Of a DNA stretch of 25,232 bases, positions 4,531 to 21,186 are shown piece after piece. Under the pieces are notes generated by a model that was not told where the DNA came from, did no database searches, and saw only the letters and a program-made list of their open reading frames with translations. Origin of the DNA: Synergistaceae bacterium OttesenSCG-928-I11. GTDB taxonomy: Bacteria > Synergistota > Synergistia > Synergistales > Synergistaceae. Both the position numbers and the translations under genes were made by a program. Where the stretch lies: contig JAJDHV010000020.1 in assembly GCA_030266365.1 (NCBI GenBank), positions 1 to 25,232 on the forward strand. The letters run 5' to 3'. Position 1 is the first letter of the stretch, and each line of letters begins with the position of its first letter.

Positions 4531-4543
4531 TCGCCTCACCTCC

Positions 4544-4620
4544 ATGTAGAGTTTATCAAATATTTATACGAATTCAAGATGTAGGTATTGACTCTACATT
4601 ATTGCGTGATAGAATGTAGA
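4544..4620. promoter_or_regulatory. Rrf2/cupin divergent control region with four copies of half-site ATGTAGA arranged as two nested palindromes
   Basis: ATGTAGA at 4544-4550; ATGTAG at 4579-4584; CTACAT at 4594-4599 (6-bp arms, 9-nt spacer); TCTACATT at 4593-4600 paired with AATGTAGA at 4613-4620 (8-bp perfect arms, 12-nt spacer). These lie between divergent Rrf2 (minus) and cupin (plus) genes. Confidence 0.5.
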
Positions 4621-8045: not shown

Positions 8046-8090
8046 CGCCGGGGCGCACGCTAAAATCGCGTGCGCCCCGGCGTTTTTCTT
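8046..8090 (+). terminator. intrinsic terminator (15-bp stem CGCCGGGGCGCACGC / GCGTGCGCCCCGGCG, loop taaaatc, then TTTTTCTT); likely bidirectional for convergent MCP gene
   Basis: Perfect GC-rich stem followed by a U-tract, lying between the hxlR-like stop (8016) and the MCP stop (8090). Confidence 0.8.
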
Positions 8091-10258
8091 CAGCTGGCGA
8101 GTGCGTGGGTTGGATCCTGGTCCTCGGTTTTGAATTGCGACAGGTGTTCCTCGAGCGTCTCGGTCCCGGCCGCGAGCGAGCGTGATTCGCGCTCCACGTT
8201 TTCGGAGACGGCGAGCGTCTGGTTGGTCGCGGTACGGATACTGCCGATGGCGTTGCGGATGCCGCTGGTCGACTCCGTCGTCCTGTGGATGATCTCCAGC
8301 ATCTCGTTGGTGCTGGCGGCCTGTTCCTGCGAGGTCGCCGCCACGCCCTGGATGGAGTCGGAGATCGTGCCCAGCTCCTCCTGCGCGCGGCGGAGATTTT
8401 CCGTCGCATGTTCCGCCTCGCTCTGAACGTCGCGCAGTGCGTCGCGGATGTTGGCGAAGACCTCCTGCGAGTTCCCCGTCTCCTGATCCAGCGAGGTCAC
8501 CAGTTCCGATATCTTCTTCGCCGCGGCGTTGGAGTCCTCGGCCAGTTTGCGCACTTCCTCGGCGACGACGGCGAAACCTCGCCCGGCTTCCCCGGCCCTC
8601 GCCGCTTCGATCGCCGCGTTCAGCGCCAGCAGGTTCGTCTGCTCGGCGATGCCGGAGATTGCGCTGACGAAGCCGGTGATCATACCGACCGAGGAGGAGA
8701 GGCTGTCGATGCTCTGGTCGCAGGCGGTCGTCTGTTCGGCGACCAGAGCGATTTTTTGCACGACCATCTCCACGTCGCGGACGGCGTCTTTGTTCAGGCG
8801 GTCCGTCTGCGCCGCGCGCTCGGCAACATTCGTGATCAACTCGGCGGCGTTGGCGGTTGCTTCGGTGATGCTCTGGGCGCCGGCGTCGATCTGCTGAATG
8901 TCGCGATCGTTGCTCTCGGAGAGGTCGTGCACGTTCTCCACCGCGGCCAGCACGGTCTGGACGTTGGCCAGCGATTCCTGCGACAAGCCGGCGAGCGTGG
9001 CGGAGGAGTGGCTGAAATTTCGCGCCTCCTCGCCGAGCGCGGCTACGGTATTGTTCAGGGAACCCTTTAGGTCGCGGATGGCTCTGCTCATGTCCCCAAT
9101 CTCGTCCGACGCCCCTTCGTAACGCGAGAGGACGTCCTTGTTTCCCGTGCCGCCGGCCGTGAGGTCGAGTTCGCCGAATCGCTTGAGGATCTCAGAGGTC
9201 GTCGTGATCGGCCGCACGATGCGGCGCACCATGATCGTCAGCACGACGCCGAGAATGGACAGTCCTGCCAGCGAAGCCAGCACGATGCGCCAGACCAGCG
9301 CCGAGCGCTCCCGATCGGCGATGATCGACGGCACGGAGAGCGAGAAGGACCAGGGCTTGCCCGTGTCCCCGATCTTGACCGGCTGGTGGCAGAAGGCGGT
9401 ATTTCCTCGCCCGTCCGGTGCGGGAATGACGAAGTACGTGGAGCCCCCCTCCTGGATCATCCGCATTGTCTCGTCGGTGTTGCTCGCCCCTAGCTCGCGG
9501 TAGTTTTTGCCGATGAACGACTTGTCGAAGCGGCTGACGATCACGCCGTCGTTGGAGAAGAGCGTGGCCCGGCCCCCCTCCGGAAGCTGAAACGACGAGA
9601 CGATGCGGTCGAGCAGCGCCAGCGAGAGGTCGATACCGGCAACCCCGATCCGTTTGTTGCCCCGCTCGATCGGGATGCCGATAGTGGTGACGAGCACATT
9701 GTCGCTGGGGTTGCCCGTGTAACTGTAGAGGAAGGGCTCGATGAGCGTCTCCGCCCCGCCCCTCAGCGCTTCGTGATACCAGTCGAACATTGCCACGTCT
9801 CTCTCGCTGATGTTCTCCGTGGTCTGCGTGATCGTGTTCCCGTTGCGGCTGAAGATGCCGATCATCCGACCGGCCTCGTTGTAGCCGTTCCTTCCAGCAT
9901 AGTCCCGGTCCAGGCCGTCGAAGGCGTCCGCTTCGTAGACGACCCAGGCGGAGGTGATGTCGGGCATGTTGATGAGGAAGTTCTTTGTGATTTGCAGCAG
10001 CTCGTCGCGCGCGCCTTCCTGATGTGGATCGAGGCTGCTCACCACGGAGGCGAACGTCCGCAGCGCTCCGATGGACGTGTTGAGGGTGGCCTCCACCATG
10101 TTGCTCGCCGAGGCCGCATTCGCCCGCACCGACTCTTCGGCAGCCCTGGCGCTCGACTGCGATACCTGAAGAACGATCAGCAGGCTCATTATGACGAAGA
10201 CAGACAACGCCACACCCAATACGCCCAACAACATTTTCTTCTGCATGTTCAATCTCAT
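8090..10258 (-). CDS. methyl-accepting chemotaxis protein with extracytoplasmic dCache-type sensor domain
   Basis: N-terminal TM helix, an extracytoplasmic domain of about 250 aa, a second TM helix, HAMP, then the MCP signalling domain ([31 protein letters not shown]). The start is set at ATG 10258 (MRLNMQKK) because GGGTGG lies 5 nt upstream. The track GTG at 10267 is less likely. The 9192..10280 ORF is an off-frame artifact. Confidence 0.9.
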
Positions 10259-10562
10259 ATTCGCCACCCTTTCGGATCATCGTGGCCCTCGCGCGCTTCG
10301 ATACGCCCGACCGGTTTCGGTTTCGGAAGCGGTTCCGGCATTATGTTTCGGCGCTTAGCATAACTGTTTGTGAAGGCATAAAAAAGGTATTTTTCTCTGG
10401 TTGAAAATCGCGCTGGCTACTGAAAATGTCACATTCTGGCATTCGCGCATAAAGTTACTCTTGACATGACGGAGTTTGCTGCTAGTGAGGAAGCGGCTTT
10501 CAGGGTAGAAGGAGCCCAGCGTGGGAAACTTTATGACAGAAGGAGTGTTTGTTTATACAAAG

Positions 10563-11993: not shown

Positions 11994-12020
11994 AAGTATG
12001 CGCTTTTTTGACGTATACTT
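11994..12020. promoter_or_regulatory. copy B of conserved 27-nt element AAGTATGC-gcttttttgac-GTATACTT
   Basis: Matches copy A at 25 of 27 positions, including the spacer. Flanking bases are also shared (caAGTATGC ... ACTTTtATAgA). It lies 64 nt upstream of the Crp-family regulator start, next to an unusually AT-rich stretch (11940-11990). Confidence 0.55.
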
Positions 12021-12083
12021 TTATAGATTGAAATCGCTGGCCAACGCCACTCGATAGAATAAATATGAAGCGAGGTAATTCTT

Positions 12084-12806
12084 TTGCTTGACGCCAAAGA
12101 CATCGAACTGCTTAAAGCGACGTTCCCCTTTTGGGACAAACTGTCCGATGACGAAGCCAACCTGCTTCTCTCGGGCACAAAACCCGTTTTGTACAAACAA
12201 GGCGGCCATATTCACAGCCCGGCAAACGAGTGTGTCGGGGTTCTGCTCGTGAAAAGCGGCGAGCTTCGTACCTATATATTGTCGAAGGGCGGAAAGGAGA
12301 TCACCCTGTTCCGCCTGAGCAAAGGCGAAGTCTGTGTATTGTCGGCATCCTGCCTGATCAGCAGCATCACCTTCGACGTCTTTATCGACGCGCAGCAGGA
12401 CATGCAAGTGCTGCACATCGACTCCGCAGTTTTTTCCCAGCTCCAAGCGGGCAACCTCCATGTGGAGAACTTTGCCCTCAAGGTGGCGGCAAATCGATTC
12501 TCCGACGTCGTGTGGGCCATGGAGCAAATTTTATTCATGAGCTTTGACGTCCGTCTTGCCGTTTTTCTCCTCGAAGAAACATCGAAAAACGGCACCGACA
12601 ACCTCATGCTCACCCACGAACAGATTGCAAAATATATCGGCAGCGCGCGCGAGGTCGTCTCCCGGATGCTCAAATATTTTGCAAACGAAGGAATCGTCCG
12701 GCTGCATCGCGGCAGCGTGGAGATCGTCGATAAGCATGCCTTGAAGAAACTGGTGCAGTCAAAGGCAAATGAGCGCAGGAATAATCAGGAAGCATCGCCT
12801 TCCTGA
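12084..12806 (+). CDS. Crp/Fnr-family transcriptional regulator (cNMP-binding domain + C-terminal HTH with R-E-x-x-x-R recognition helix; no Fnr-type N-terminal Cys cluster)
   Basis: cNMP-binding beta-roll (GELRTYILSKGGKEITLFRLSKGEVCV) and HTH EQIAKYIGSAREVVSRMLKYFANEGIV. TTG start at 12084 as in the track; a GAGGT RBS lies 8 nt upstream. The nearby ATG at 12065 is out of frame. Confidence 0.85.
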   Translation: MLDAKDIELLKATFPFWDKLSDDEANLLLSGTKPVLYKQGGHIHSPANECVGVLLVKSGELRTYILSKGGKEITLFRLSKGEVCVLSASCLISSITFDVFIDAQQDMQVLHIDSAVFSQLQAGNLHVENFALKVAANRFSDVVWAMEQILFMSFDVRLAVFLLEETSKNGTDNLMLTHEQIAKYIGSAREVVSRMLKYFANEGIVRLHRGSVEIVDKHALKKLVQSKANERRNNQEASPS

Positions 12807-13363
12807 TTGTCGTATTTCAGCTTGCAGATCATCTGCGTCATCGTTCCCATCGGACAAATCACGCACCAGGAGCGCGGGCGAAAGAAGACCATAAAAATCA
12901 TGCCGATCAGAACCGACGTCAGCATCAGGCTGTAAAACCCAAACGCGAACTGCGCGACCCACGGCGTCACGATTCCGTCCGCATACGCCCACTGCCAGGG
13001 CAGCCTGAATGTCCAGAACAACGTGATCATTTCAATTAAATTATGTACCCCAGAAAACACCAGGTATGTGCTGAAGAGCATGTTGCCGAACATGGCCATA
13101 AAAAAAGCCAGAAAGCCGTACCGAAACCACTTGCTGTACAAAAAATTCGGCATCTTGTTGTTCAACGAGAACTTTGACCCCAAAAGCGCGAACAGTTGCC
13201 CACGCCCGCAGTAATCGTTGCAGTATCCCTTCGTCCCCTTGATGATGGATATGAGCAGGGGAATCATAAAACAGAACACCCCAAGCCAGGCAAAGAGGAT
13301 ATTGACAAACCCCAGAACGATATAGAGCGAGGAGGTGATCCAAAGATAATCGTACCATTTCCC
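12785..13363 (-). CDS. integral membrane protein of unknown function with Cys motifs (CNDYCGRG; CVICPMG), co-operonic with ferredoxin
   Basis: The track ORF 12785..13567 is a read-through fusion; its first about 65 residues are an off-frame translation of the ferredoxin gene. The real start is probably GTG 13363 (VIKGKWYDY...), with GGAGG 10 nt upstream. The protein has about five hydrophobic helices. Its 3' end overlaps the convergent crp-like gene by 22 nt. Confidence 0.55.
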   Translation of the reverse strand, partial: GKWYDYLWITSSLYIVLGFVNILFAWLGVFCFMIPLLISIIKGTKGYCNDYCGRGQLFALLGSKFSLNNKMPNFLYSKWFRYGFLAFFMAMFGNMLFSTYLVFSGVHNLIEMITLFWTFRLPWQWAYADGIVTPWVAQFAFGFYSLMLTSVLIGMIFMVFFRPRSWCVICPMGTMTQMICKLKYDNQEGDAS

Positions 13364-13368
13364 CTTGA

Positions 13369-13560
13369 TCACTTTTCCCCAACCTCCAACCGGATCAGGC
13401 AGGCTGGGCACGCTTTGACGCACTTGCCGCACCCGACACATCCCGCTTGGTCGACAACAGCCGTAACGCCCCTGTCGATGAAGATCGCGGATTTGGGGCA
13501 GACCTTTACGCATGTACCACACGCAACACAGTGTCGCGTGTCGACGACCGCTTTTTTCAT
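13369..13560 (-). CDS. 2x[4Fe-4S] ferredoxin (63 aa)
   Basis: CVACGTCVKVCP and CVGCGKCVKACP, two CxxCxxCxxxCP motifs. GGAG RBS lies just upstream of ATG 13560. Confidence 0.85.
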   Translation of the reverse strand: MKKAVVDTRHCVACGTCVKVCPKSAIFIDRGVTAVVDQAGCVGCGKCVKACPACLIRLEVGEK

Positions 13561-13592
13561 GAGGCACGCTCCTTCACATCAATGACTTCATC

Positions 13593-13633
13593 ATAATATG
13601 TGAAAATTTAGTGTGCTTCAGTGACCTGGTCAC
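13593..13633 (-). promoter_or_regulatory. conserved promoter/operator module, copy F (minus strand): palindrome GTGACCAGGTCAC (13633-13621), -35 CTGAAG (13621-13616), 17-nt spacer, -10 TATTAT (13598-13593)
   Basis: About 58 nt are shared at about 80% identity with 14764..14818, in the same orientation relative to the downstream gene. The predicted TSS near 13586 gives a 26-nt leader to the ferredoxin ATG. Confidence 0.55.
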
Positions 13634-13679
13634 GCCCGCGAGCAAACTGTTGGAGATGGCGGACGGAAAAACATGCGGT

Positions 13680-13946
13680 TTATTCTGTGTTCACATCGAC
13701 ACGAAACACGTTTATGACATCGGGATCGGGGCAACAGACGCGGATATCTCCGTGCTCTTTGCAAGGCGGCAATTGTCCGCCATACCTCAGGATATTGATG
13801 TAGGGAAACAACACATGCATCGCCATGGGGCAGAGTTTGCCGCGGTCTTCGTCAAAATCGAAAATTTCGCCGACCCTGTGCCCTCGGTGGCAACCATGTT
13901 TCCCCATCCGTTCGACCAGTTCGATTTTTATTTTTGGCTTTTTCAT
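13680..13946 (-). CDS. small Cys-rich protein of unknown function (88 aa; probably TIGR04076-like; paralog of 7207..7521)
   Basis: MKKPKIKIELVERMGKHGCHRGHRVGEIF...CPMAMHVLFPYINILRYGG...CCPDPDVINVFRVD. It shares its architecture with the 7207..7521 protein. AAGAGG RBS sits in the 13-nt gap after the HD-GYP gene, so the two are co-transcribed. Confidence 0.65.
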   Translation of the reverse strand: MKKPKIKIELVERMGKHGCHRGHRVGEIFDFDEDRGKLCPMAMHVLFPYINILRYGGQLPPCKEHGDIRVCCPDPDVINVFRVDVNTE

Positions 13947-13959
13947 CGAACGCCGCCTC

Positions 13960-14640
13960 TTATCGATACAAGGGCAACGATTGCAAATTTATTTTTTCGG
14001 ACAGCGCCTTCTCGTGCTCCGCTTCTTTGCGGCGTTTGCAAATTTCGCAATTGCACTCCAATGCCTCCAAAAAGTCCTCATCGTAGCTCAACAGGGTTTG
14101 CACGACATTTGCGTCTAGCTGTGTCCCGGCGGCTTCTTTCAATATTCGAATCGTATCCTGTATGGATTTTGCCGGGCGATATGCGCGGTAGGTTCGCAAT
14201 GCCGAAAAAGTGTCCGCCACGGCGATAATTCTGGAAGCAAGCGGTATGCCGTCTCCCGACAAACCGTGATAACCTTTGCCATCCATACGTTCGTGATGAT
14301 AAAGAATCCAGTCGCCGATATCCTCAAACATCGTACCTTGAAGTAGGTTGCACCCACTCACAGGATGCTGCCGAATAATTTCCCACTCTTCATCGGAGAG
14401 GGAGCAGTCTTTGTTCAAGACGTTTTCCGGGACCAATATTTTGCCGATATCGTGAAGCAACGCCGCATGAGCAAGTTTTTCCCTGTCGATGGGAAAATGT
14501 CCAGCCTCAAAAATCGCCTCCGTAACGACATAGACATGGTGAGAGTGTCCCTGCGTATATTCATCGCGCGCGCCGATGATGTTGGTGCAAATTTTCAGGA
14601 TTTCGCTGCCCTGTTGCCGATCCATATTCGTTTGGCTCAT
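13960..14640 (-). CDS. stand-alone HD-GYP-type phosphohydrolase (variant motif HHERMDGKGYH)
   Basis: HD domain (ALLHDIGK ... HHERMDGKGYHGL ... VADTFSALRTYRAYR) with His in place of the Pro of GYP. AGGAGAG RBS lies 9 nt upstream of ATG 14640. Confidence 0.8.
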   Translation of the reverse strand: MSQTNMDRQQGSEILKICTNIIGARDEYTQGHSHHVYVVTEAIFEAGHFPIDREKLAHAALLHDIGKILVPENVLNKDCSLSDEEWEIIRQHPVSGCNLLQGTMFEDIGDWILYHHERMDGKGYHGLSGDGIPLASRIIAVADTFSALRTYRAYRPAKSIQDTIRILKEAAGTQLDANVVQTLLSYDEDFLEALECNCEICKRRKEAEHEKALSEKINLQSLPLYR

Positions 14641-14763
14641 TGCATCAATCTCTCCTGTGGCGAGAATTCACGTATCATTTGCGTTTAATTATATGCCATA
14701 AACAAACCGCCGATGTGACATATATCGCGCCGCTTTCTTTGGATCGGCTGTCCATTGCTTTGC

Positions 14764-14804
14764 TGTGACCAAGTCACTGAAGTTCGCGGGATTTTCACAT
14801 ATGA
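14764..14804 (+). promoter_or_regulatory. conserved promoter/operator module, copy C (plus strand): palindrome GTGACCAAGTCAC (14764-14776), -35 CTGAAG (14776-14781), 17-nt spacer, -10 TATGAT (14799-14804)
   Basis: Duplicate of the 13593..13633 module. The predicted TSS near 14811 gives a leader of about 123 nt to the CoADR ATG. The palindrome centre is about 41 bp upstream of the TSS, a class-II-activator-type position. Confidence 0.55.
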
Positions 14805-14834
14805 TGAAACCATTGATATGGAACGGGTTTTGTG

Positions 14835-14901
14835 ATGGAAACGTCGTTTTCAGCAGTTCGATATCCTTGGCGTCTAACAGGAAAATCACCTCATTCTGCA
14901 T
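14835..14901 (-). pseudogene. inverted duplicate of the crp-family gene 5' end (RBS region + first about 22 codons), embedded in CoADR leader
   Basis: Minus-strand sequence atgcagaatgaggtgattttcctgttagacgccaaggatatcgaactgctgaaaacgacgtttcc aligns at about 80% with 12064..12131 (atgaagcgaggtaattcttttgcttgacgccaaagacatcgaactgcttaaagcgacgttccc). It encodes MQNEVIFLLDAKDIELLKTTFP, against Crp MLDAKDIELLKATFP. The 70-codon ORF that follows (to 14689) has no SD and loses similarity. Confidence 0.4.
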
Positions 14902-14934
14902 TTTACTATACTCTGGTAACGGGAGGAATGAAGC

Positions 14935-16593
14935 ATGAATAAGAAAATTCTGATCGTCGGCGGTGTGGCAGGCGGCGCTTCGGCGGCAGCGAGACTTCGG
15001 AGGCTGGATGAGCACGCGGAAATCATCATGTTCGAAAAGGGCGAGTACATTTCCTTTGCCAACTGCGGCCTGCCGTACTACATCGGCGGAGAGATCGAAA
15101 AACGCGCCTCGCTCATCCTGCAAACGCCGGAGGCTTTCCGCGGCCGTTTTAACGTCGACGTCCGCATATGCAGCGAAGTTGCCGCCATCGACCGGACAAA
15201 AAAGACCGTCACGGTAAAAAACCACAAAACCGGTGAGAGCTATACCGAACGTTACGACAGCCTGATTCTGTCGCCCGGAGCGGAGCCAATCAAACCGTCG
15301 ATCGGCGGGGTCGACTCCAAAGGGGTATTCACCCTGCGGAATCTATCCGATACGGACAGGATCAAAAATTTCATCGCAGAGAACAAACCGCACACCGTCG
15401 CAATCGTCGGCGGAGGGTATATCGGCGTCGAGATGGCCGAAAATCTTCACAAGGCGGGGCTCGACGTGACGCTGATCGAGATGCTGAATCAGGTCATCGC
15501 CCCGCTCGACTTCGATATGGCCTGCGGCGTACATCGCCATATCGAAAGCAAGGGCGTGAAGTTGCTTCTTGAGACCGCCGTGAAATCCATACAGGGCCAT
15601 AATGGCAAACTCCAGGTCGAGTTGAGCAAGGGTTCGCTGGACGTCGACATGCTGATCCTCTCCATCGGCGTGAGACCCGAGACCGGCCTTGCCAGACATG
15701 CCGGATTGGAGCTGAACGAGCGCGGCTCCATCATCGTCGACGGGAACATGCGCACATCCGACAAGGACATCTACGCGGTGGGCGACGCCGTGGAGGTGAC
15801 GGACTTCGTAACGGGCCAGAGGACGTTTATCCCGCTGGCAGGGCCTGCCAACAAACAGGGGCGCATCGCCGCCGACAACATTTGCGGCATAGAGAGCCGC
15901 TACACGGGAACGCAGGGGAGCGCCATCCTGCGGGTGTTCGACATGACGGTCGCGACCACCGGGGTCAACGAGAAGACCGCCGCTCGTCTCGGCCTCGATT
16001 ACGACAAGATCTTTACACACCCCACCAGCCACGCGATGTACTATCCGGGGTTTGAATACACCGCCATCAAAACGTTGTTCGATCGGAAAACGGGCAAGAT
16101 ACTCGGGGCGCAGGTCGTCGGGTTCGAGGGCTGCGACAAAAACTGCGATGTGCTTGCAACGGCAATCCGGTTTGGGGCGACGGCAAAAGACCTGACCGAG
16201 CTGGAGCTCTGTTATGCGCCGCCGTACTCGTCCGCGAAAGACCCGGTAAACATGATCGGTTTCGCGATCGAGAATCTGCTGTCGGGGAAATACAGGCAAA
16301 TCCACTGGCACGATTACGGGAAACTGCCGCGCGACGGCAGCGTCATCTTCCTGGACACGAGGATGAAAGAGGAGTCCGAGGGTGCGCCCATCGGAGGATT
16401 TATCAATATTCCGACGAACGAGCTCCGAAATCGGCTGCACGAACTGGACAAAAACAAAACCATCTACGTAAGCTGTCGCGTCGGGTTGCAGGGATATATC
16501 ACATGCCGCATGTTAAGCCAGCACGGCTTTACCTGCTACAATTTCAGCGGAGGATACAGGCTCTACAAGGACCTGTTCGGTGTGAAAAAATAA
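14935..16593 (+). CDS. CoA-disulfide reductase with C-terminal rhodanese domain (CoADR-RHD / NADH-dependent persulfide reductase type)
   Basis: FAD fold GVAGGASAA; redox-active Cys in SFANCGLPYYIGG (CoADR/Nox signature); NAD fold VAIVGGGYIGVE. The C-terminal rhodanese module has the active-site loop CRVGLQG. GGGAGG RBS lies 8 nt upstream. Confidence 0.9.
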   Translation: MNKKILIVGGVAGGASAAARLRRLDEHAEIIMFEKGEYISFANCGLPYYIGGEIEKRASLILQTPEAFRGRFNVDVRICSEVAAIDRTKKTVTVKNHKTGESYTERYDSLILSPGAEPIKPSIGGVDSKGVFTLRNLSDTDRIKNFIAENKPHTVAIVGGGYIGVEMAENLHKAGLDVTLIEMLNQVIAPLDFDMACGVHRHIESKGVKLLLETAVKSIQGHNGKLQVELSKGSLDVDMLILSIGVRPETGLARHAGLELNERGSIIVDGNMRTSDKDIYAVGDAVEVTDFVTGQRTFIPLAGPANKQGRIAADNICGIESRYTGTQGSAILRVFDMTVATTGVNEKTAARLGLDYDKIFTHPTSHAMYYPGFEYTAIKTLFDRKTGKILGAQVVGFEGCDKNCDVLATAIRFGATAKDLTELELCYAPPYSSAKDPVNMIGFAIENLLSGKYRQIHWHDYGKLPRDGSVIFLDTRMKEESEGAPIGGFINIPTNELRNRLHELDKNKTIYVSCRVGLQGYITCRMLSQHGFTCYNFSGGYRLYKDLFGVKK

Positions 16594-16702
16594 AAAACAC
16601 CGCTCGTTGACGGATTGCCATGCCATCAAAGCACAGGTTTAGCGTTTGGGAGCCGTGCCTTGGTTGTCTCACGTTTGGGCCTTTCGCCCATATGTCGCCG
16701 TA

Positions 16703-16710
16703 TGTATAAT
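16703..16710 (+). promoter_or_regulatory. candidate -10 (TGTATAAT, near-extended) for the tlpA-like operon; small palindrome GCACAggTGTGC at 16732-16743 in the leader
   Basis: Perfect TATAAT preceded by TG, 55 nt upstream of ATG 16765. No convincing -35, and no clear terminator between CoADR and this gene, so read-through from CoADR is also possible. Confidence 0.3.
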
Positions 16711-16764
16711 GACCTTCTGCACAGGTGTGCGGACGAAAAAGACAGATGGAGAGGATGAATCAAC

Positions 16765-17268
16765 ATGAGAAAATTTGCGTTTGTGATCACACTGGCTGTG
16801 CTGGCAATTGCGATGGCTGGCACGGCTTTTGCAGCGGACGCGTTTCCCGCCTTCAAGTCCTATAATCTGGCGGGAGAGGAAGTGTCGCAGGAGATTTTCG
16901 CCGGCAAGAAGCTGACGATGATCAACTTCTGGGGGACCTACTGCCCACCGTGCATCAGTGAGATGCCCGACCTCGGCGAGCTGGGGCGGTCGATGCCGGA
17001 AGGGACGCAGCTCGTGGGGATCGTGATCGATGTCGGCGACAAGGAGACGTTCGAAAAGGCCATCGAGATCACGAAAACCGCGAATGCCGACTTCCCCAAC
17101 ATTTTGATCTCGCAGGAGATGATCCCCTATCTGGAGACGATCGTGGCCGTGCCGACGACGATCTTTGTCGACGCACAGGGCAATGTCATCGGCGAGCCGA
17201 TCGTCGGATCGCGCTCTGGAAAGGCCTATCGCGGTGAAGTCGAAAAGGCCTTGAAACTTTTGCCGTAG
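16765..17268 (+). CDS. TlpA/ResA-like thiol:disulfide oxidoreductase (thioredoxin fold), secreted/lipid-anchored
   Basis: N-terminal signal peptide MRKFAFVITLAVLAIAMAGTAFAA and the thioredoxin active site WGTYCPPC. GGAGAGG RBS. Confidence 0.85.
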   Translation: MRKFAFVITLAVLAIAMAGTAFAADAFPAFKSYNLAGEEVSQEIFAGKKLTMINFWGTYCPPCISEMPDLGELGRSMPEGTQLVGIVIDVGDKETFEKAIEITKTANADFPNILISQEMIPYLETIVAVPTTIFVDAQGNVIGEPIVGSRSGKAYRGEVEKALKLLP

Positions 17269-17275
17269 CTCGAAA

Positions 17276-17422
17276 TGTCTGACTCCAGGAGGCGCTTGCT
17301 CCGCGCGGTGCTGCTTGTGACGGCCTTTTTCTTCGTCTTCATCGGTTGGAAGAGGGGGGAAGTCGCATCTGTGCTCGTCAAGGCGATCTTCGTCTGCCTC
17401 GAGTGCATCGGGATCGGCTAGC
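17276..17422 (+). CDS. possible small membrane protein (48 aa, MSDSRRRLLRAVLLVTAFFFVFIGWKRGEVASVLVKAIFVCLECIGIG)
   Basis: An unannotated ORF between the tlpA-like stop and the napH-like start. It has basic N-terminal residues then one hydrophobic helix carrying a CxxC. No good SD, and it falls below the ORF-track size cutoff. Confidence 0.2.
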
Positions 17423-17436
17423 TCGGACACGCCGCA

Positions 17437-18306
17437 ATGCTTCGCAAGGCTGCACAGTGGTTGAACCTGTTACTCAGCAACGCCTACTTGCCGGGCTTCT
17501 GGCTGGGGCGCATCTATAAGGGCAAGCTGAAATCCGTTTGTGTGCCGGGGTTGAATTGCTACTCCTGCCCGGGGGCCGTTGCTTCCTGCCCGTTGGGCTC
17601 TTTGCAGGCTTCCTTCGGCGGGGGCGGATTTTACCCCGGTTTTTACGTCGTCGGTTTGCTGCTGGCTTTCGGCGCGCTCTTCGGCCGCTTCGTATGCGGG
17701 TTTCTCTGCCCCTTCGGCCTGATGCAGGAGCTGCTGTACAAAATGCCGATTCCACGTCCCTGCAAACGAACGGCAGGCCAAGTTCGCCACTGGTCGCGCT
17801 ACATCAAATACGCCGTGCTGATCATCTTCGTGATCGGAATGCCGGCACTGCTGGCGGGCGATTCGGGGTTGGCCTCTCCCGCTTTCTGCAAGTACATCTG
17901 CCCGGCGGGCACGCTGACCGCTGGATTGCCGCTTTTGGCCGCCAACAGCTCCCTGCGCGCGGCGGCGGGAGCCCTCTTTGTCTGGAAGTTTGCCGTGGCG
18001 GTCGCGATCGTTCTCGGCTGTTTGCTGATCCTTCGTTTTTTTTGCAAATACCTTTGTCCGCTGGGCGCAATCTACGCGCTCTTCAACCGCGTGGCTCTCT
18101 ACCGCCTGCGGTTGACGCCGGAGAACTGCGTCCACTGCGGCGACTGCATCCGCGCCTGCCCGATGGGGGTAGACCCCTCGCACGACCCCGACAGCGGCGA
18201 GTGCATCCGCTGCGGCGATTGCGCAAAAGCTTGTAAATACAACGCCCTGCACACCGGATTTGCATGCGGCGAACGAGAGGCCAAGAAAACGGCAGCCCGC
18301 TGCTGA
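17437..18306 (+). CDS. NapH/MauN-like membrane-bound polyferredoxin (4 TM helices with C-x3-CP motifs plus C-terminal 2x[4Fe-4S] ferredoxin domain)
   Basis: CGFLCPFG, CKYICPAG and CKYLCPLG in predicted TM segments. C-terminal CVHCGDCIRACP and CIRCGDCAKAC. Confidence 0.8.
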   Translation: MLRKAAQWLNLLLSNAYLPGFWLGRIYKGKLKSVCVPGLNCYSCPGAVASCPLGSLQASFGGGGFYPGFYVVGLLLAFGALFGRFVCGFLCPFGLMQELLYKMPIPRPCKRTAGQVRHWSRYIKYAVLIIFVIGMPALLAGDSGLASPAFCKYICPAGTLTAGLPLLAANSSLRAAAGALFVWKFAVAVAIVLGCLLILRFFCKYLCPLGAIYALFNRVALYRLRLTPENCVHCGDCIRACPMGVDPSHDPDSGECIRCGDCAKACKYNALHTGFACGEREAKKTAARC

Positions 18307-18519: not shown

Positions 18520-19092
18520 GTGTTTACGCAATTCGCTACCATATTTCGTCCAGACTCGATCACGCCGGGAGCCGTTAGCTATGCGCTTCGCTCCGTCTTT
18601 TCGGAAAATACGACGATCCAGCTATGGGCCTACAACGTCGAGACGATACTGGCGGAAAAAATCGAAACGGTTCTGCGGCGAGGCATCTTCAACAGCCGAA
18701 TGCGCGACTTTTACGATATTCACGTCCTCACAAAAACCCAGAGCTACGATGTCAAAATTCTCCGAGAGTCGCTCAGAAGGGCAGCCGAGCACAGCGAGTC
18801 CGTTCAGCAGGTAATAAACGCTTCCGCGATACTTGATTCAATTGGGAACAGTAAGGAACTGGCAAAGTATTGGAGCAATTACCGGCGCGAATATGAATAT
18901 GCTCGAGACATCTCGTTCTCGGAAATTATTACCGCTTTACAAGAGTTGGCAGAGCACGTGATGTCGAGCCGCACGAATTATCCGGAGAAGAAGTTGAAGT
19001 TTCGGGTGAATCGTGCGAAGAGCCGGACAGGCAGTCCGCTGAAAGCTGACCGGCTGAAGCCGGTGGATTTAGACCGGGAACTCGGAAATTAA
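18520..19092 (+). pseudogene. 5'-truncated nucleotidyltransferase AbiEii/AbiGii-family (DUF1814) abortive-infection/type IV TA toxin gene; C-terminal about 190 aa only
   Basis: The WAYNVETILAEKIETVLRRG...RDFYDIHVL region matches the C-terminal half of the AbiEii family as I recall it. An in-frame stop lies immediately upstream of the GTG at 18520. No N-terminal nucleotidyltransferase domain, no AbiEi partner gene, and no promoter (a terminator abuts it). Followed by an AT-rich tract. Confidence 0.55.
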
Positions 19093-19185: not shown

Positions 19186-19355
19186 TTAGGATGAAGACAT
19201 CCGTGATTTGAGCGGGGTATTGTAAATTGCGTTGCAGAAGAGCTTGGGGTTTTTTGAGAGAAGAGAGAGAAGAAAATTGTGGAAGGAAAGGATGGTTGGA
19301 AGGAGTATTTCGATACGAGTTTTATGTCATTCTAAAACAAGAGGGGGAAATGGTT

Positions 19356-20060
19356 ATGGGAATATTGAGCAGATTTTCGGACATCATGGGCGCGAATATC
19401 AATTCGCTTCTTTCCAAGGCGGAGGCTGGTAACGCGGATAAGCTTCTGGAAAAGTATCTGAGGGACGCGAAGGAGAACATCGCTCAGGTGAAAGCGGAGA
19501 CAGCGGCGGTGATCGCCGAGGAGACAGGGCTTGCACGCAAACTCGCCGACAACGAGGCGAACTGCAAAAAATACGAGAACTATGCCGTAGCTGCTGTCAA
19601 GGATGGCAACGACGACGACGCCAGGAAGTTTTTGACCTACAAGAGCCACCTGGAGGAGGAACGGGCGGGGTTGTCCTCCCAATACAACCGGGCGAAGGAC
19701 AACAGCGAAAAGATGAGGCAACTGCTCAAAAAACTCTCGAGCGATGTCGATGCCGCAGAGGATAAACTGGGTGAGCTCAAGCAGAAGTTGACCGTGGCAA
19801 AGCAGCAGGAGAAAATGAACAAGCTCGGAGAGAAGCTTGGCAACAACCCCCTGAGCGGCGTCGACAGCCTGTTCGACGCAGTGCAGAAGCGAGTGGATGC
19901 GGCGGATGCCGCGATGGCCCTCGACCAGGAATTTACGAAAGAGACGCTAGAGGTTGAAGATTTGGCGAAAAAATACGACGCGGGTACTCAGGAGGTCAAA
20001 GCCGACCGGGTGGAGGACCAACTCGCCATGCTGAAAGCCGGCCTCAAAAAAGAGGCATAG
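19356..20060 (+). CDS. pspA: phage shock protein A / IM30 family
   Basis: MGILSRFSDIMGANINSLLSKAEAGNADKLLEKYLRDAKENIAQVKAETA is the canonical PspA N-terminus, followed by coiled coil throughout. AGAGGGGGAA RBS lies 9 nt before ATG 19356. The track start at 19227 is a spurious 5' extension. Confidence 0.9.
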   Translation: MGILSRFSDIMGANINSLLSKAEAGNADKLLEKYLRDAKENIAQVKAETAAVIAEETGLARKLADNEANCKKYENYAVAAVKDGNDDDARKFLTYKSHLEEERAGLSSQYNRAKDNSEKMRQLLKKLSSDVDAAEDKLGELKQKLTVAKQQEKMNKLGEKLGNNPLSGVDSLFDAVQKRVDAADAAMALDQEFTKETLEVEDLAKKYDAGTQEVKADRVEDQLAMLKAGLKKEA

Positions 20061-20063
20061 GCC

Positions 20064-21152
20064 ATGGCAACGACACCCGATGTGCAGGAGCAGCAGAAAG
20101 AGGTTCATGTAGATACCGAGACGTTCATATGCCAAAATTGCGCCGGCATTATGAAGTTCAACATCGGCAAGCAGAAGTTCGAGTGTTCGGCATGTAAGGC
20201 TGAATACGACCTGGAGACGCTCTCCGACAGCGTCAAGGAAAATGACTTCAGCTTGTATCACGAGCGGGAGAAGGCGACGACCCCCTTCGAAGGCATGGCT
20301 GTTGCCGTCTGCCAGCAGTGCGGCATGGAGATTTCTTTTTCCGAATCGCAATTCTCGACGACCTGCCCCATGTGCGGCTCCACGCAGGTCGCCACAGCGA
20401 AGCAGAGCGCTGGAATTCCGCCGGACGGTGTAATTCCGTTCAAGATCGACAAACAGGACGCGCAGCAGAGGTTCAAGGCGTGGGTAAAGAGCCGCTGGTT
20501 TGCCCCGAATGATTTTAAGAACAGATATGCCGAAGGCGGTCTTGCCGGCATGTTCCTGCCCTTTTGGACGTACGATGCCTATGCGGTCTCAAGGTATACG
20601 GGCAGGGGCGGGAAAAACAGGAAGGAAAAGGACAAGGACGGTAAGGAGAGAACCGTGACGGATTGGTATCCGGTGCAGGGCGTCGTGAGTGCTTCCTTCG
20701 ACGATGTGCAGATCTGCGCCTCCCAAAAAGAGGAGAGCATCGGGGGTATTCTGCCTTACGGAACGACCAGCAACACGAAACCCTTTTCAGCGGGTTACCT
20801 CTCCGGTTATTATGCGGAAGTCTACAAAATAAAGGCGGACACGGGCTTTGAGAGCGCGAAGACGATCATGGAGAGTAAATTGCGGAGCCTGGCGGCAAAG
20901 GATATCGAAAAGAAATACGATAGATCGGACGTGCAGTCGCTCTCGACGAAATTTTCCAGAGTAACCTACAAGCACGTGCTCCTTCCCCTCTGGAGCTCAG
21001 CTTTCGGCTATAACGGAAAGACGTATAACTATATGATAAACGGAGAGACCGGCAAAGTAAGCGGCGACAGGCCCTATTCCGCAATTAAGATCGCGCTCGC
21101 GGTTCTCAGCTTCATCGCGGTGGTCGCCACCTGGTACATGATGTCTCAGTAA
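20064..21152 (+). CDS. YdjG-like protein: two N-terminal zinc-ribbon pairs and C-terminal transmembrane anchor
   Basis: CQNC...CSAC and CQQC...CPMC, then the C-terminal helix IKIALAVLSFIAVVATWYMM. It begins 4 nt after the pspA stop, the same order as the B. subtilis pspA-ydjGHI operon (from memory). Confidence 0.65.
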   Translation: MATTPDVQEQQKEVHVDTETFICQNCAGIMKFNIGKQKFECSACKAEYDLETLSDSVKENDFSLYHEREKATTPFEGMAVAVCQQCGMEISFSESQFSTTCPMCGSTQVATAKQSAGIPPDGVIPFKIDKQDAQQRFKAWVKSRWFAPNDFKNRYAEGGLAGMFLPFWTYDAYAVSRYTGRGGKNRKEKDKDGKERTVTDWYPVQGVVSASFDDVQICASQKEESIGGILPYGTTSNTKPFSAGYLSGYYAEVYKIKADTGFESAKTIMESKLRSLAAKDIEKKYDRSDVQSLSTKFSRVTYKHVLLPLWSSAFGYNGKTYNYMINGETGKVSGDRPYSAIKIALAVLSFIAVVATWYMMSQ

Positions 21153-21186
21153 CAAAGAATAAACTCGATGGAGGATTGAGCGACAA

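What the first reader, a model, noticed from the sequence alone, without database searches (positions are those of the whole stretch)
12084..18306. Candidate thiol/persulfide-redox module: Crp-type regulator, ferredoxin operon, HD-GYP operon, CoADR-rhodanese, secreted TlpA-like thioredoxin and NapH-like membrane polyferredoxin
The gene content is functionally coherent. A CoADR with a fused rhodanese domain is the architecture of NADH-dependent persulfide/polysulfide reductases. It is followed by a signal-peptide TlpA-type CxxC thioredoxin and a NapH-like membrane protein whose C-x3-CP motifs in TM helices are associated with moving reducing equivalents across the membrane. A soluble 2x[4Fe-4S] ferredoxin with another CxxxC membrane protein, and an HD-GYP signalling enzyme, share the same upstream promoter module. 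Taken together this looks like an inside-to-outside electron or thiol-reduction pathway under dedicated transcriptional control. The particular combination of CoADR-RHD with TlpA and a NapH-like protein is one I do not recognise as a described system.
Basis: inference. Interest (0 to 1): 0.6.

Follow-up and report, generated by a model that had tools for sequence, protein, structure and literature searches.

The report
Two neighbouring redox modules, not one

Summary
The window is a contig of Synergistaceae bacterium OttesenSCG-928-I11. All the named genes are confirmed. A 48-aa CD1871A-family CXXC gene (17275-17421) was missed.

The proposed CoADR-RHD/TlpA/NapH-like trio is not conserved. It is absent from 80 genome loci, from relatives whose polyferredoxin is 80-81% identical, and from the four closest CoADR-RHD loci.

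Two independent modules are conserved instead.

**Module A** is a cassette found in several phyla. It holds a Crp-family regulator with three invariant cysteines, a ferredoxin plus a small Fer4_5 membrane protein, thioredoxin or rhodanese, and CoADR-RHD. Its operator (tGTGAC-N3/4-GTCACa) always lies 22-23 nt before a -10 box. The window carries two partial, inverted copies of the cassette. This explains the repeated promoter, which drives the ferredoxin operon and CoADR-RHD rather than HD-GYP. It also explains a crp 5' relic in the CoADR-RHD leader.

**Module B** is the operon TlpA-like thioredoxin, CD1871A peptide, polyferredoxin. The peptide gene accompanies the polyferredoxin in 79/80 loci and the thioredoxin in 67/80. 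Two-component systems and occasionally MsrAB lie nearby.

My inference is that module B carries electrons from cytoplasmic iron-sulfur clusters to an extracytoplasmic thioredoxin, in place of CcdA/DsbD. I found no functional description of either module.

The parts
12084..12806 (+). Crp/FNR-family regulator of module A (240 aa). C50, C84 and C90 are invariant in the family.
   Evidence: Pfam HTH_Crp_2 60.5 bits and Crp 37.2 bits. The closest solved structure is the uncharacterised 3dv8, E 1.6e-56. The three cysteines are 100% conserved in 33 distinct homologs that lie beside ferredoxin and Fer4_5 genes. Orthologs 68-77% identical sit next to CoADR-RHD in L165-L168.
12785..13372 (-). Small Fer4_5 membrane protein (195 aa). 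Its GTG start overlaps the ferredoxin stop codon. Invariant motifs are YCNxYCGRGQL and WCVxCPMGTMTQ.
   Evidence: Pfam Fer4_5 23 bits against a cut-off of 22. Eighty metagenome homologs are 60-68% identical. C51, C55, C170 and C173 are invariant in 63 distinct sequences.
13369..13560 (-). Ferredoxin with two [4Fe-4S] motifs (63 aa), first gene of the ferredoxin / Fer4_5 operon.
   Evidence: Pfam Fer4 and Fer4_9. A ferredoxin lies directly upstream of the Fer4_5 protein in 76 of 80 loci, and in 33 of 33 well-flanked loci.
13593..13633 (-). Ferredoxin-operon promoter: operator palindrome GTGACCAGGTCAC (13633-13621 read on the minus strand), then 22 nt, then the -10 box TATTAT (13598-13593). The centre lies at about -41.
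   Evidence: The same geometry holds at 32 of 32 operator sites upstream of ferredoxin genes in other loci. The motif occurs 84 times against 9.7 in shuffles.
13680..13946 (-). TIGR04076-family small Cys-rich protein (88 aa), second gene of the HD-GYP operon.
   Evidence: NCBIfam TIGR04076 74.7 bits against a cut-off of 33. It lies beside module A elsewhere in only one of 80 loci (L135).
13960..14640 (-). Stand-alone HD-GYP-type phosphohydrolase (226 aa). The motif reads HHExxDGxGYH.
   Evidence: Pfam HD_5 105 bits. An HD_5 gene is also in one operon with the ferredoxin and Fer4_5 genes in the Treponema locus L165.
14765..14805 (+). Second copy of the promoter module: operator GTGACCAAGTCAC (14765-14777), then 22 nt, then the -10 box TATGAT (14800-14805). 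It faces CoADR-RHD.
   Evidence: No -10 box stands at this spacing on the HD-GYP side.
14837..14892 (-). Relic of a second crp gene: ribosome-binding site plus codons 1-15. It lies antisense inside the CoADR-RHD leader and marks a deletion or rearrangement junction.
   Evidence: It is 80% identical to 12072-12127, and 14 of the 15 residues are the same; 10 of the 11 that BLASTP aligned are identical. The rest of the ORF is no more similar to crp than shuffled sequence. In L165-L168 an intact crp occupies this position.
14893..14934 (+). Native short crp|CoADR-RHD intergenic region, with the -10-like TATACT (14907-14912) and the ribosome-binding site GGGAGG.
   Evidence: It aligns by eye with the 49-52 nt crp|CoADR-RHD spacers of L165-L168.
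14935..16593 (+). CoADR-RHD (552 aa), a cytoplasmic NAD(P)H-dependent CoA-persulfide / persulfide reductase type.
   Evidence: Pfam Pyr_redox_2, Pyr_redox_dim and Rhodanese. PDB matches: 3icr E 1.9e-184, Npsr 3nta and EfCoAPR 8a56. The SFANCGLPY cysteine and the rhodanese-loop cysteine (CRVGLQG) both align.
16765..17268 (+). Secreted TlpA/ResA-like thioredoxin (167 aa) with a signal peptide ending AFA|AD and the active site WGTYCPPC. First gene of module B.
   Evidence: Pfam Redoxin 45.8 bits and AhpC-TSA 44.9 bits. It scores below all NCBIfam equivalog cut-offs. A homolog lies beside the polyferredoxin in 67 of 80 loci, and in 47 of 54 well-flanked loci.
17275..17421 (+). CD1871A-family CXXC membrane peptide (48 aa) ending in CLECIGIG.
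   Evidence: NCBIfam NF040920 53 bits against a cut-off of 32. An equivalent small ORF lies on the same strand next to the polyferredoxin in 79 of 80 loci, directly upstream in nearly all. RefSeq annotates the same pair in P. acidaminophilum.
17437..18306 (+). NapH-related membrane polyferredoxin (289 aa). It has an N-terminal Cx5Cx2Cx6C motif, three CX3CP motifs and two C-terminal [4Fe-4S] motifs. All 18 of these cysteines are invariant.
   Evidence: Pfam Fer4_5 63 bits with two stretches, plus Fer4. NapH models score below their cut-offs (64.7 against 213). The invariant cysteines come from a 79-sequence alignment. The AF2 model has pLDDT 77. Only the ferredoxin domain matches the PDB.

Best explanation
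The 6.2-kb stretch holds two independently conserved redox modules that lie side by side only in this contig.

**Module A (12084-16593)** is a cassette that moves between phyla. Its regulator is a Crp/FNR-family protein with three invariant cysteines. The regulator binds a palindrome, tGTGAC-N3/4-GTCACa, centred about 41 nt upstream of the transcription start, which is the geometry of a class II activator. Through this site it controls a ferredoxin / small Fer4_5 membrane protein operon. In other genomes it also controls thioredoxin and rhodanese genes. CoADR-RHD, a CoA-persulfide-reductase-type enzyme, is normally transcribed divergently from the regulator gene.

The window carries two partial copies of this cassette in inverted orientation, flanking the HD-GYP / TIGR04076 operon. 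Copy 1 keeps crp, the Fer4_5 gene, the ferredoxin gene and the operator. Copy 2 keeps an operator, a 56-nt relic of crp, and CoADR-RHD. A deletion in copy 2 placed an operator-bearing promoter in front of CoADR-RHD. I infer that module A responds to thiol or sulfane-sulfur stress.

**Module B (16765-18306)** is an operon of a secreted TlpA-like thioredoxin, a 48-aa CXXC membrane peptide and a NapH-related polyferredoxin. I infer that low-potential cytoplasmic electrons enter the two C-terminal [4Fe-4S] clusters. They then pass through cysteine-ligated centres of the membrane module, built from the CX3CP motifs, the N-terminal four-cysteine motif and the peptide's CXXC. Finally they reduce the extracytoplasmic thioredoxin. 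On this reading module B does the job that CcdA/DsbD does elsewhere.

What is shown: gene content, conservation, operator geometry and invariant cysteines. What is inferred: the sensed signal, the topology and the direction of electron flow.
For: **Separation of the two modules**
- No CoADR-RHD ortholog lies beside the polyferredoxin in 80 loci.
- Relatives with 80-81% identical polyferredoxins share DNA similarity only across 16746-18287.
- No polyferredoxin or CD1871A gene occurs in 80 module-A loci or in L165-L168.
- The operator is not enriched in module-B loci.

**Module A**
- Ferredoxin with Fer4_5 protein: 33 of 33 well-flanked loci. Crp: 23 of 33. Thioredoxin: 18 of 33. Secreted rhodanese: 11 of 33.
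- The operator occurs 84 times against 9.7 expected.
- A TAnnnT hexamer starts 22-23 nt after the operator at 32 of 32 sites, and at both window sites.
- One operator serves divergent promoters in L154, L166 and L167.
- C50, C84 and C90 are invariant.
- Crp and CoADR-RHD are divergent, 49-52 nt apart, in the four closest loci, which come from Treponema, Eubacteriales and two metagenomes.
- The crp relic differs from crp mostly by synonymous changes (my reading of the sequences).

**Module B**
- Small CXXC ORF in 79 of 80 loci, TlpA-like gene in 67 of 80.
- The three genes are tightly packed.
- Eighteen cysteines are invariant.
- The TlpA-like partners carry a signal peptide or lipobox and mostly CxPC active sites.
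- The only recurring neighbours are OmpR-type two-component systems (about 25 loci) and MsrA-MsrB (2 loci). This parallels the Trx-CcdA-MsrAB-ModRS system (PMC9239216) and the Etrx-CcdA-MsrAB2 system (PMC3914529).
- The role of CX3CP motifs in the NapH/NosR/RdhC module is still open, either a disulfide or an Fe-S centre (PMC5928378).
Against: - There is no experimental evidence for either module.
- The polyferredoxin topology is inferred. Helix 6-24 is only weakly hydrophobic. The loop placed outside (residues 25-65) carries 3.6 Lys+Arg on average. AF2 confidence there is 40-55. Variants with a fourth CX3CP unit break the simple four-helix model.
- I could not test whether genomes with module B lack CcdA.
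- The four closest CoADR-RHD loci have no recognisable operator within 260 nt upstream of CoADR-RHD. Its membership of the regulon is therefore shown by sequence only for the window and the L154 lineage.
- In L166 a similar operator precedes hcp, next to a second Crp-family gene. The signal could therefore be NO or oxygen rather than sulfane sulfur.
- No terminator was found between CoADR-RHD and the TlpA-like gene, so read-through into module B in this genome cannot be excluded.
Confidence: 0.6

Rival explanations
1. All the genes form one pathway. CoADR-RHD or the ferredoxin feeds reducing equivalents through the NapH-like protein to the secreted TlpA-like thioredoxin, and the whole set is under the Crp-type regulator.
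For: The genes are adjacent and face the same way in this contig. No terminator was detected in the 171-nt gap after CoADR-RHD. L013 carries both modules 2.6 kb apart. A few module-A loci hold a distant TlpA-like gene.
Against: The trio occurs in none of 80 polyferredoxin loci, none of 80 module-A loci, none of the four closest CoADR-RHD loci and none of three close-relative contigs. There is no operator upstream of the TlpA-like gene. Similarity to the relatives begins only 19 nt before the TlpA-like start codon. A -10-like TATAAT at 16705-16710 could give module B its own promoter (inference).
Confidence: 0.07
2. Module B does not reduce disulfides. It is a metal or other small-molecule reductase or trafficking system. 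The polyferredoxin would act like the related cupric reductase CcoG, and the TlpA-like protein like a Sco-type chaperone or reductase for a metal centre.
For: The polyferredoxin belongs to the Fer4_5 superfamily, which includes CcoG; NCBIfam gives a weak ccoG_rdxA_fixG match. A P-type ATPase lies directly upstream of the module in the Synergistaceae locus L001. The function of CcoG is from my own knowledge and was not checked here.
Against: The metal-transport neighbour occurs in a single locus. The recurring neighbours are two-component systems and MsrAB. The TlpA-like partners have thioredoxin-type CxPC motifs, not the Sco CxxxC...H motif.
Confidence: 0.15
3. Module B runs in the opposite direction. 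It would be a disulfide-forming (DsbA/DsbB-like) system in which the thioredoxin-fold protein oxidises secreted proteins and passes the electrons inward to the iron-sulfur protein.
For: A thioredoxin-fold protein paired with a membrane redox partner is also the layout of DsbA-DsbB and of VKOR systems (general knowledge).
Against: Electron flow from thiols (about -120 to -270 mV) to ferredoxin-type clusters (about -400 mV) is thermodynamically uphill (general knowledge). The CxPC motifs and the TlpA/ResA similarity point to reductants. The association with MsrAB requires a reductant.
Confidence: 0.06
4. The module-A regulator is an HcpR/FNR-type sensor of NO or oxygen that works through an iron-sulfur cluster. 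The cassette would then be a nitrosative or oxidative stress regulon, not a persulfide or thiol regulon.
For: There are three invariant cysteines. The operator resembles the CRP/HcpR type TGTGA-N5/6-TCACA. In L166 a 14-nt variant of it precedes hcp (Prismane), next to a second Crp-family gene. Thioredoxin and ferredoxin genes also suit an oxidative-stress regulon.
Against: The recurring partners are sulfur-handling genes: CoADR-RHD, single-domain rhodaneses (11 of 33 loci) and CoADR-RHD homologs fused to DsrE and TusA domains. The cysteine spacing (C50, C84, C90) is not the N-terminal FNR cluster motif. The hcp operator in L166 is the N4 variant and has its own regulator gene beside it.
Confidence: 0.3

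Closest known systems
CcdA/DsbD-dependent extracytoplasmic thioredoxin systems (S. pneumoniae Etrx-CcdA-MsrAB2, PMC3914529; F. nucleatum Trx-CcdA-MsrAB-ModRS, PMC9239216; S. gordonii, PMC7034828)
   Same: A secreted or lipoprotein thioredoxin-fold CxxC protein is encoded next to its membrane partner. The set is often flanked by a two-component system and sometimes by MsrAB.
   Different: The membrane partner here is not a CcdA/DsbD thiol-disulfide relay. It is a polyferredoxin with two [4Fe-4S] motifs and 10 further invariant cysteines, plus a 48-aa CXXC peptide. The electron donor would be an iron-sulfur or ferredoxin source, not cytoplasmic thioredoxin.
NapH / NosR / RdhC (PceC) membrane module (PMC5928378)
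   Same: Membrane helices followed by CX3CP motifs, with a C-terminal 2x[4Fe-4S] domain as in NapH and NosR.
   Different: It scores far below the NapH cut-offs (64.7 against 213). It has a third CX3CP motif and an N-terminal four-cysteine motif. There are no NapG, NapA, NosZ or dehalogenase partners. Its conserved partners are a thioredoxin and a CXXC peptide.
Ferredoxin:thioredoxin reductase and heterodisulfide reductase chemistry (my own knowledge, not tested here)
   Same: An iron-sulfur cluster is used to reduce a disulfide that then reduces a thioredoxin-type protein. This is the chemistry proposed for module B.
   Different: There is no sequence relationship. Those enzymes are soluble, or membrane-bound but acting in the cytoplasm, and do not span the membrane.
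cst-type persulfide-detoxification operons with CoA persulfide reductase (E. faecalis CoAPR, PMC9405070; Npsr, PMC7969121; B. anthracis CoADR-RHD, 3icr)
   Same: A CoADR-RHD with both catalytic cysteines, clustered with rhodanese genes and a dedicated regulator.
   Different: The regulator is a Crp/FNR-family protein with three invariant cysteines, not a CsoR-family CstR. The cassette core is a ferredoxin plus a Fer4_5 membrane protein of unknown role, with thioredoxin.
FNR / HcpR / CooA-type Crp-family redox regulators acting at class II promoters
   Same: The same family (Pfam; PDB matches to CooA and FNR at E 1e-4 to 1e-7). The palindromic site resembles TGTGA...TCACA and is centred near -41.5.
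   Different: The spacing is mostly N5 between the TGTGA and TCACA cores. The sensor cysteines are at positions 50, 84 and 90, not the N-terminal FNR motif. The regulon is thioredoxin, ferredoxin, rhodanese and CoADR-RHD. The closest structure, 3dv8, is uncharacterised.

Membership tests
NapH/MauN ferredoxin-type quinol dehydrogenase subunit | Score at or above the curated cut-off of TIGR02163 or PRK09477 | tested here: not met
   64.7 bits against 213, and 47.5 bits against 234. Only residues 182-275 align.
NapH/MauN ferredoxin-type quinol dehydrogenase subunit | Membrane module with CX3CP motifs plus two C-terminal 4Fe-4S motifs | tested here: met
   C87x3C91P, C151x3C155P and C203x3C207P, plus two Cx2Cx2Cx3C motifs, all invariant. 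That is three CX3CP motifs, where NapH has two.
NapH/MauN ferredoxin-type quinol dehydrogenase subunit | Encoded with NapG/NapA (or MauM, or NosG/NosZ) partners | tested here: not met
   No such genes occur in the window or among the recurring neighbours in 80 loci.
CD1871A family CXXC motif-containing protein (NF040920) | Score at or above the curated cut-off, with a C-terminal CxxC | tested here: met
   53 bits against a cut-off of 32. The protein ends in CLECIGIG.
TlpA/ResA/CcmG extracytoplasmic thiol-disulfide oxidoreductases | Thioredoxin fold with CxxC and an export signal | tested here: met
   Redoxin 45.8 bits and AhpC-TSA 44.9 bits, above their cut-offs. The motif is WGTYCPPC. The N-terminal signal sequence ends AFA|AD.
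TlpA/ResA/CcmG extracytoplasmic thiol-disulfide oxidoreductases | Equivalog-level match to ResA, TlpA, StoA or DsbE | tested here: not met
   52.7 against 170, 49.3 against 230, 46.6 against 210, and 33.8 against 123.
CcdA/DsbD-thioredoxin reducing pathway | A CcdA/DsbD membrane thiol-disulfide transporter encoded with, or available to, the thioredoxin | tested here: inconclusive
   No CcdA/DsbD family appears in the finding region (12084-18306), in the other ten window ORFs scanned, or among the top recurring neighbours. Whole genomes could not be examined.
CoADR-RHD / CoA persulfide reductase / Npsr | Pyr_redox_2, dimerisation and C-terminal rhodanese domains over the full length | tested here: met
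   The full-length alignment to 3icr covers residues 3-546 at E 1.9e-184.
CoADR-RHD / CoA persulfide reductase / Npsr | Redox-active cysteine in SFxNCGLPY and a rhodanese active-site cysteine | tested here: met
   The cysteine of SFANCGLPYY and the cysteine of VSCRVGLQG align with those of 3icr and 3nta.
CoADR-RHD / CoA persulfide reductase / Npsr | NAD(P)H-dependent reduction of CoA persulfide or polysulfide | not testable with these tools
   This needs an enzyme assay. The TIGR03385 CoA-disulfide reductase score is 526.8, below its cut-off of 578.8.
FNR proper (oxygen-sensing Crp/FNR regulator) | N-terminal Cx2Cx5C plus a central cysteine that ligate a [4Fe-4S] cluster, and a TTGAT-N4-ATCAA site | tested here: not met
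   The cysteines are at positions 50, 84 and 90. The Fnr model scores 29 bits against 228. The site is GTGAY-N3/4-RTCAC.
CstR-regulated cst operon | A CsoR-family CstR repressor encoded with the persulfide-handling genes | tested here: not met
   No CsoR-family gene occurs in the finding region (12084-18306), in the ten further window ORFs scanned, or in L154 and L165-L168. The adjacent regulator belongs to the Crp family.

The most novel reading that the evidence does not exclude
The TlpA-like thioredoxin, the CD1871A peptide and the polyferredoxin together form an iron-sulfur-driven transmembrane disulfide reductase. This would be ferredoxin:thioredoxin-reductase-like chemistry stretched across the membrane. 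It would replace CcdA/DsbD in hundreds of anaerobic species, including major gut Clostridia, Synergistota and Spirochaetota, and it would assign a function to the long-unexplained CX3CP motifs of the NapH/NosR/RdhC superfamily. Separately, the module-A regulator would be the first Crp-family sensor of thiol or persulfide stress.
Probability: 0.3. Interest if true: 0.8.

Novelty: new variant of a known kind. Interest (0 to 1): 0.55.

Why it matters
**Module B.** If it works as proposed, it is a second and mechanistically different way for bacteria to send reducing power to the outside of the cell. It would draw on low-potential iron-sulfur carriers instead of the cytoplasmic thioredoxin to CcdA/DsbD relay. 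Its protein family has more than 8000 relatives in the protein database. It also occurs in mobile contexts. It could therefore bear on how strict anaerobes repair oxidised envelope proteins. It would also give a testable role to the CX3CP motifs of NapH, NosR and RdhC, whose function is still unassigned (PMC5928378).

**Module A.** It provides a well-defined operator, regulator and regulon for a thiol or sulfur stress response whose sensor family has not been linked to this chemistry.

**For annotation.** Adjacency in a single genome was misleading here, and a 48-aa gene that is essential to the picture is easy to miss.

Tried and rejected
- An exact look-up of the 289-aa polyferredoxin found nothing, because NCBI records a 281-aa version.
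- The palindrome count inside the window alone is not significant: 2 observed, 0.73 expected, and 20 of 100 shuffles reached 2 or more. Only the cross-locus analysis made it meaningful.
- Foldseek against the PDB matched only the ferredoxin domain. No hit had E <= 0.001, so there is no structural analogue for the membrane part. The afdb50 library was unavailable. Model coordinates cannot be retrieved, so cysteine-cysteine distances could not be measured.
- I considered that the whole minus-strand ORF 14689-14868 was a decayed crp. Only the first 56 nt are related. The weak second protein match (E 0.06) has no DNA support beyond shuffles.
- I considered a structured leader or riboswitch upstream of CoADR-RHD. 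The fold has z = -0.11.
- I looked for an operator upstream of CoADR-RHD in its four closest relatives. None was found with two or fewer mismatches.
- Literature searches returned no functional description. The terms were CD1871A, CD1871/CD1872, polyferredoxin with TlpA or CcdA, '4Fe-4S binding protein' with TlpA, and 3DV8. The library is incomplete, so prior work in subscription journals cannot be excluded.
- HD-GYP and TIGR04076 are not general members of module A (0 of 33 well-flanked loci). An HD_5 gene does share an operon with the ferredoxin and Fer4_5 genes in the Treponema locus L165.

Full report
**Source and gene map.** The window is the 25,232-nt contig of Synergistaceae bacterium OttesenSCG-928-I11. 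The polyferredoxin and the CoADR-RHD are 100% identical to NCBI proteins from that assembly.

- Crp-family regulator, 12084-12806 (+).
- Fer4_5 membrane protein, 12785-13372 (-). Its GTG start overlaps the stop codon of the ferredoxin.
- 2x[4Fe-4S] ferredoxin, 13369-13560 (-).
- HD-GYP-type HD_5 protein, 13960-14640 (-).
- CoADR-RHD, 14935-16593 (+).
- Signal-peptide TlpA/ResA-like thioredoxin with a CPPC motif, 16765-17268 (+).
- Polyferredoxin, 17437-18306 (+).

Two genes were not listed. One is a TIGR04076 protein (13680-13946, -). The other is a 48-aa ORF at 17275-17421 (+), MSDSRRRLLRAVLLVTAFFFVFIGWKRGEVASVLVKAIFVCLECIGIG. It matches the NCBIfam family 'CD1871A family CXXC motif-containing protein' at 53 bits against a cut-off of 32. 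With this gene included, TlpA, the small gene and the polyferredoxin are separated by only 6 and 15 nt, so they form one operon.

**Test of the trio.** I aligned polyferredoxin homologs and fetched 80 loci from a collection of one genome per species. The loci are 44-59% identical to the query and come from Synergistaceae, many Clostridia families, Treponema and Spirochaetaceae.

- A TlpA-like gene lies next to the polyferredoxin on the same strand in 67 of 80 loci, and in 47 of 54 loci with at least 2.5 kb on each side.
- A small ORF ending in C..C[IV]G[IV]G lies on the same strand next to it in 79 of 80, directly upstream in nearly all.
- CoADR-RHD does not accompany them. The only hits are a 34% identical gene about 4.3 kb from the TlpA-like gene, on the other strand (L031), and a 25% identical partial match (L019).

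Contigs whose polyferredoxin is 80-81% identical keep TlpA, the small gene and the polyferredoxin. Their other neighbours differ: a periplasmic binding protein and a two-component system in one, an IS21 transposase in another. DNA similarity to the window spans only 16746-18287. A Pfam census of 267 flanking ORFs found only two recurring neighbour types: OmpR-type response regulators with histidine kinases (about 25 loci) and MsrA-MsrB (2 loci).

**Module A.** A metagenome scan with the 195-aa Fer4_5 protein returned 80 loci at 60-68% identity. Among the 33 loci with at least 2.5 kb on each side, the neighbours were:

| Neighbour | Loci (of 33) |
|---|---|
| Ferredoxin directly upstream | 33 |
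| Homolog of the window's Crp regulator | 23 |
| WCGPC thioredoxin | 18 |
| Secreted single-domain rhodanese | 11 |
| TrxB-like reductase | 4 |
| CoADR-RHD, divergent from the ferredoxin | 2 |

In 33 distinct regulator homologs, C50, C84 and C90 are invariant. The closest solved structure is the uncharacterised 3dv8.

Upstream of the ferredoxin genes lies a conserved palindrome, GTGAY-N3/4-RTYAC, or more fully tGTGAC-N3/4-GTCACaGAA. It occurs 84 times in 716 kb against 9.7 in shuffles. It also precedes thioredoxin genes and crp itself. In L154 it sits in the shared region between a rhodanese / CoADR-RHD operon and the ferredoxin operon. At 32 of 32 sites upstream of ferredoxin genes, a TAnnnT hexamer begins 22-23 nt after the palindrome. 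This puts the site near -41, the geometry of a class II Crp/FNR activator.

The window has exactly two such sites. Both have a hexamer at +22: TATTAT facing the ferredoxin operon and TATGAT facing CoADR-RHD. No hexamer stands at that spacing on the HD-GYP side. The shared promoter module is therefore real, but it links the ferredoxin operon with CoADR-RHD.

**Why the promoter is duplicated.** The closest CoADR-RHD homologs (70-76% identical) come from other phyla in the same sample series: Treponema, Eubacteriales and two metagenomes. All four loci share these features:

- An ortholog of the window's crp (68-77% identical) is transcribed divergently from CoADR-RHD, 49-52 nt away.
- A thioredoxin gene lies beside crp.
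- The ferredoxin and Fer4_5 genes are nearby in three of the four loci.

Window positions 14880-14934 correspond to that short spacer. Positions 14837-14892, on the minus strand, are 80% identical to the ribosome-binding site and first 15 codons of crp, with mostly synonymous differences (codon comparison from the sequences). Beyond this point the similarity stops.

The window therefore carries two partial cassette copies in inverted orientation around the HD-GYP / TIGR04076 operon. Copy 1 is crp, the Fer4_5 gene, the ferredoxin gene and operator 1. Copy 2 is operator 2, a deletion junction near 14821-14836, the crp relic and CoADR-RHD. The four relatives have no recognisable operator within 260 nt upstream of CoADR-RHD. 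Operator control of CoADR-RHD is thus specific to this genome and to the L154 lineage, while the physical linkage of crp and CoADR-RHD is general.

The CoADR-RHD matches B. anthracis CoADR-RHD, Shewanella Npsr and E. faecalis CoAPR over its full length, and both catalytic cysteines are conserved (PMC9405070, PMC7969121). Together with the recurring thioredoxin and rhodanese genes, this makes a thiol or sulfane-sulfur stress regulon the best reading. In L166 a related operator precedes hcp, next to a second Crp-family gene. An HcpR-like response to NO or oxygen therefore remains a serious rival.

**Module B mechanism (inference).** In 79 homologs the following cysteines are invariant:

- C35, C41, C44 and C51.
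- Three CX3CP pairs: 87/91, 151/155 and 203/207.
- Eight ferredoxin-type cysteines.

NapH models match only the C-terminal third and score far below their cut-offs. The AF2 model has pLDDT 77 and pTM 0.75. Its ferredoxin domain matches known structures, but the membrane part has no match in the PDB.

I place the N-terminal four-cysteine loop and the second CX3CP motif outside the cell, and the first and third CX3CP motifs inside. This rests on analogy with the four-helix NapH/NosR/RdhC module (PMC5928378) and on a ferredoxin domain that lacks an export signal. The small peptide should expose its CXXC outside: it has basic residues at the N-terminus, then one membrane helix, then a C-terminal CLECIGIG.

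The TlpA-like partners mostly carry a signal peptide or lipobox and CxPC active sites. The arrangement, the two-component systems and the occasional MsrAB all parallel the CcdA-based systems of S. pneumoniae and F. nucleatum (PMC3914529, PMC9239216). I therefore propose that the polyferredoxin-peptide pair takes the place of CcdA/DsbD and uses iron-sulfur chemistry.

Caveats on the topology:

- The first helix is only weakly hydrophobic.
- The loop placed outside is rich in Lys and Arg.
- AF2 confidence in that region is low.
- Variants with a fourth CX3CP unit do not fit the simple topology.

**Literature and verdict.** RefSeq gives the three module-B genes only generic names. The name-giving C. 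difficile gene lies in the conjugative transposon CTn5. Searches found no functional study of either module.

The unifying interpretation is not. What is present is two conserved and apparently uncharacterised modules, each a new variant of a known kind of system.

Noticed in passing
window 18520-19092 (+): A truncated AbiEii toxin gene lies directly downstream of module B. Only profile positions 112-235 of 238 are present. Module B is also followed by IS21-type transposase genes in L082, and the name-giving C. difficile gene sits in the conjugative transposon CTn5. The module therefore seems to travel with mobile DNA.
   Followed up: partly
window 14837-14892, relative to 12072-12127: If transcription starts near 14812, the CoADR-RHD leader contains 56 nt that are 80% complementary to the ribosome-binding site and first codons of the intact crp mRNA. 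This could allow antisense cross-talk. It may equally be just a relic.
   Followed up: no
window 12000-15000: G+C is 0.49-0.52 here, against 0.55-0.66 in much of the contig. The closest homologs of the cassette genes, at 68-77% identity, are in Treponema and Eubacteriales from the same sample series. Both points fit horizontal acquisition.
   Followed up: partly
L166 8432-10570: In an Eubacteriales relative, a 14-nt variant of the operator precedes hcp (Prismane), next to a second Crp-family gene. An exact copy of the 13-nt operator precedes a rhodanese gene. Two paralogous regulators may therefore read N4 and N3 variants of one site.
   Followed up: no
proteins P0129-P0240: Many close CoADR-RHD homologs are proteins of about 815 aa with extra DsrE-like and TusA domains fused at the C-terminus. 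These are larger sulfur-trafficking fusions of the same enzyme.
   Followed up: no
L005 9731-10801, and one further module-B locus: A fused MsrA-MsrB lipoprotein gene directly follows the TlpA-like gene of module B. This makes MsrA-MsrB a likely client of the secreted thioredoxin in those species.
   Followed up: partly
L001 4874-7122: In another Synergistaceae genome, a P-type ATPase gene and a small ORF lie directly upstream of module B. This is the only hint of a link to metals.
   Followed up: no
L165 4253-6512: In the Treponema relative, the ferredoxin gene, the Fer4_5 gene, an ArsR-type HTH gene and a 394-aa HD_5 gene form one co-directional string next to CoADR-RHD. HD-domain signalling proteins thus accompany the cassette in two lineages.
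   Followed up: partly
window 13960-14640: The HD-GYP protein has GYH in place of GYP (HHERMDGKGYHGL). It has no receiver domain and ends with a CNCEICKRRK cysteine motif.
   Followed up: no
proteins P0076 and P0088: Some polyferredoxin homologs carry a fourth CX3CP-helix-membrane-segment unit. P0088 stands for 24 member sequences. This does not fit a simple even-numbered helix topology.
   Followed up: no
window 4075-4545, 8090-10267 and 19227-22173: The rest of the contig encodes an Rrf2 regulator, a dCache methyl-accepting chemotaxis protein, RsgA, and a PspA / zinc-ribbon / SPFH (Band 7) cluster. None of these is linked to the finding.
   Followed up: no
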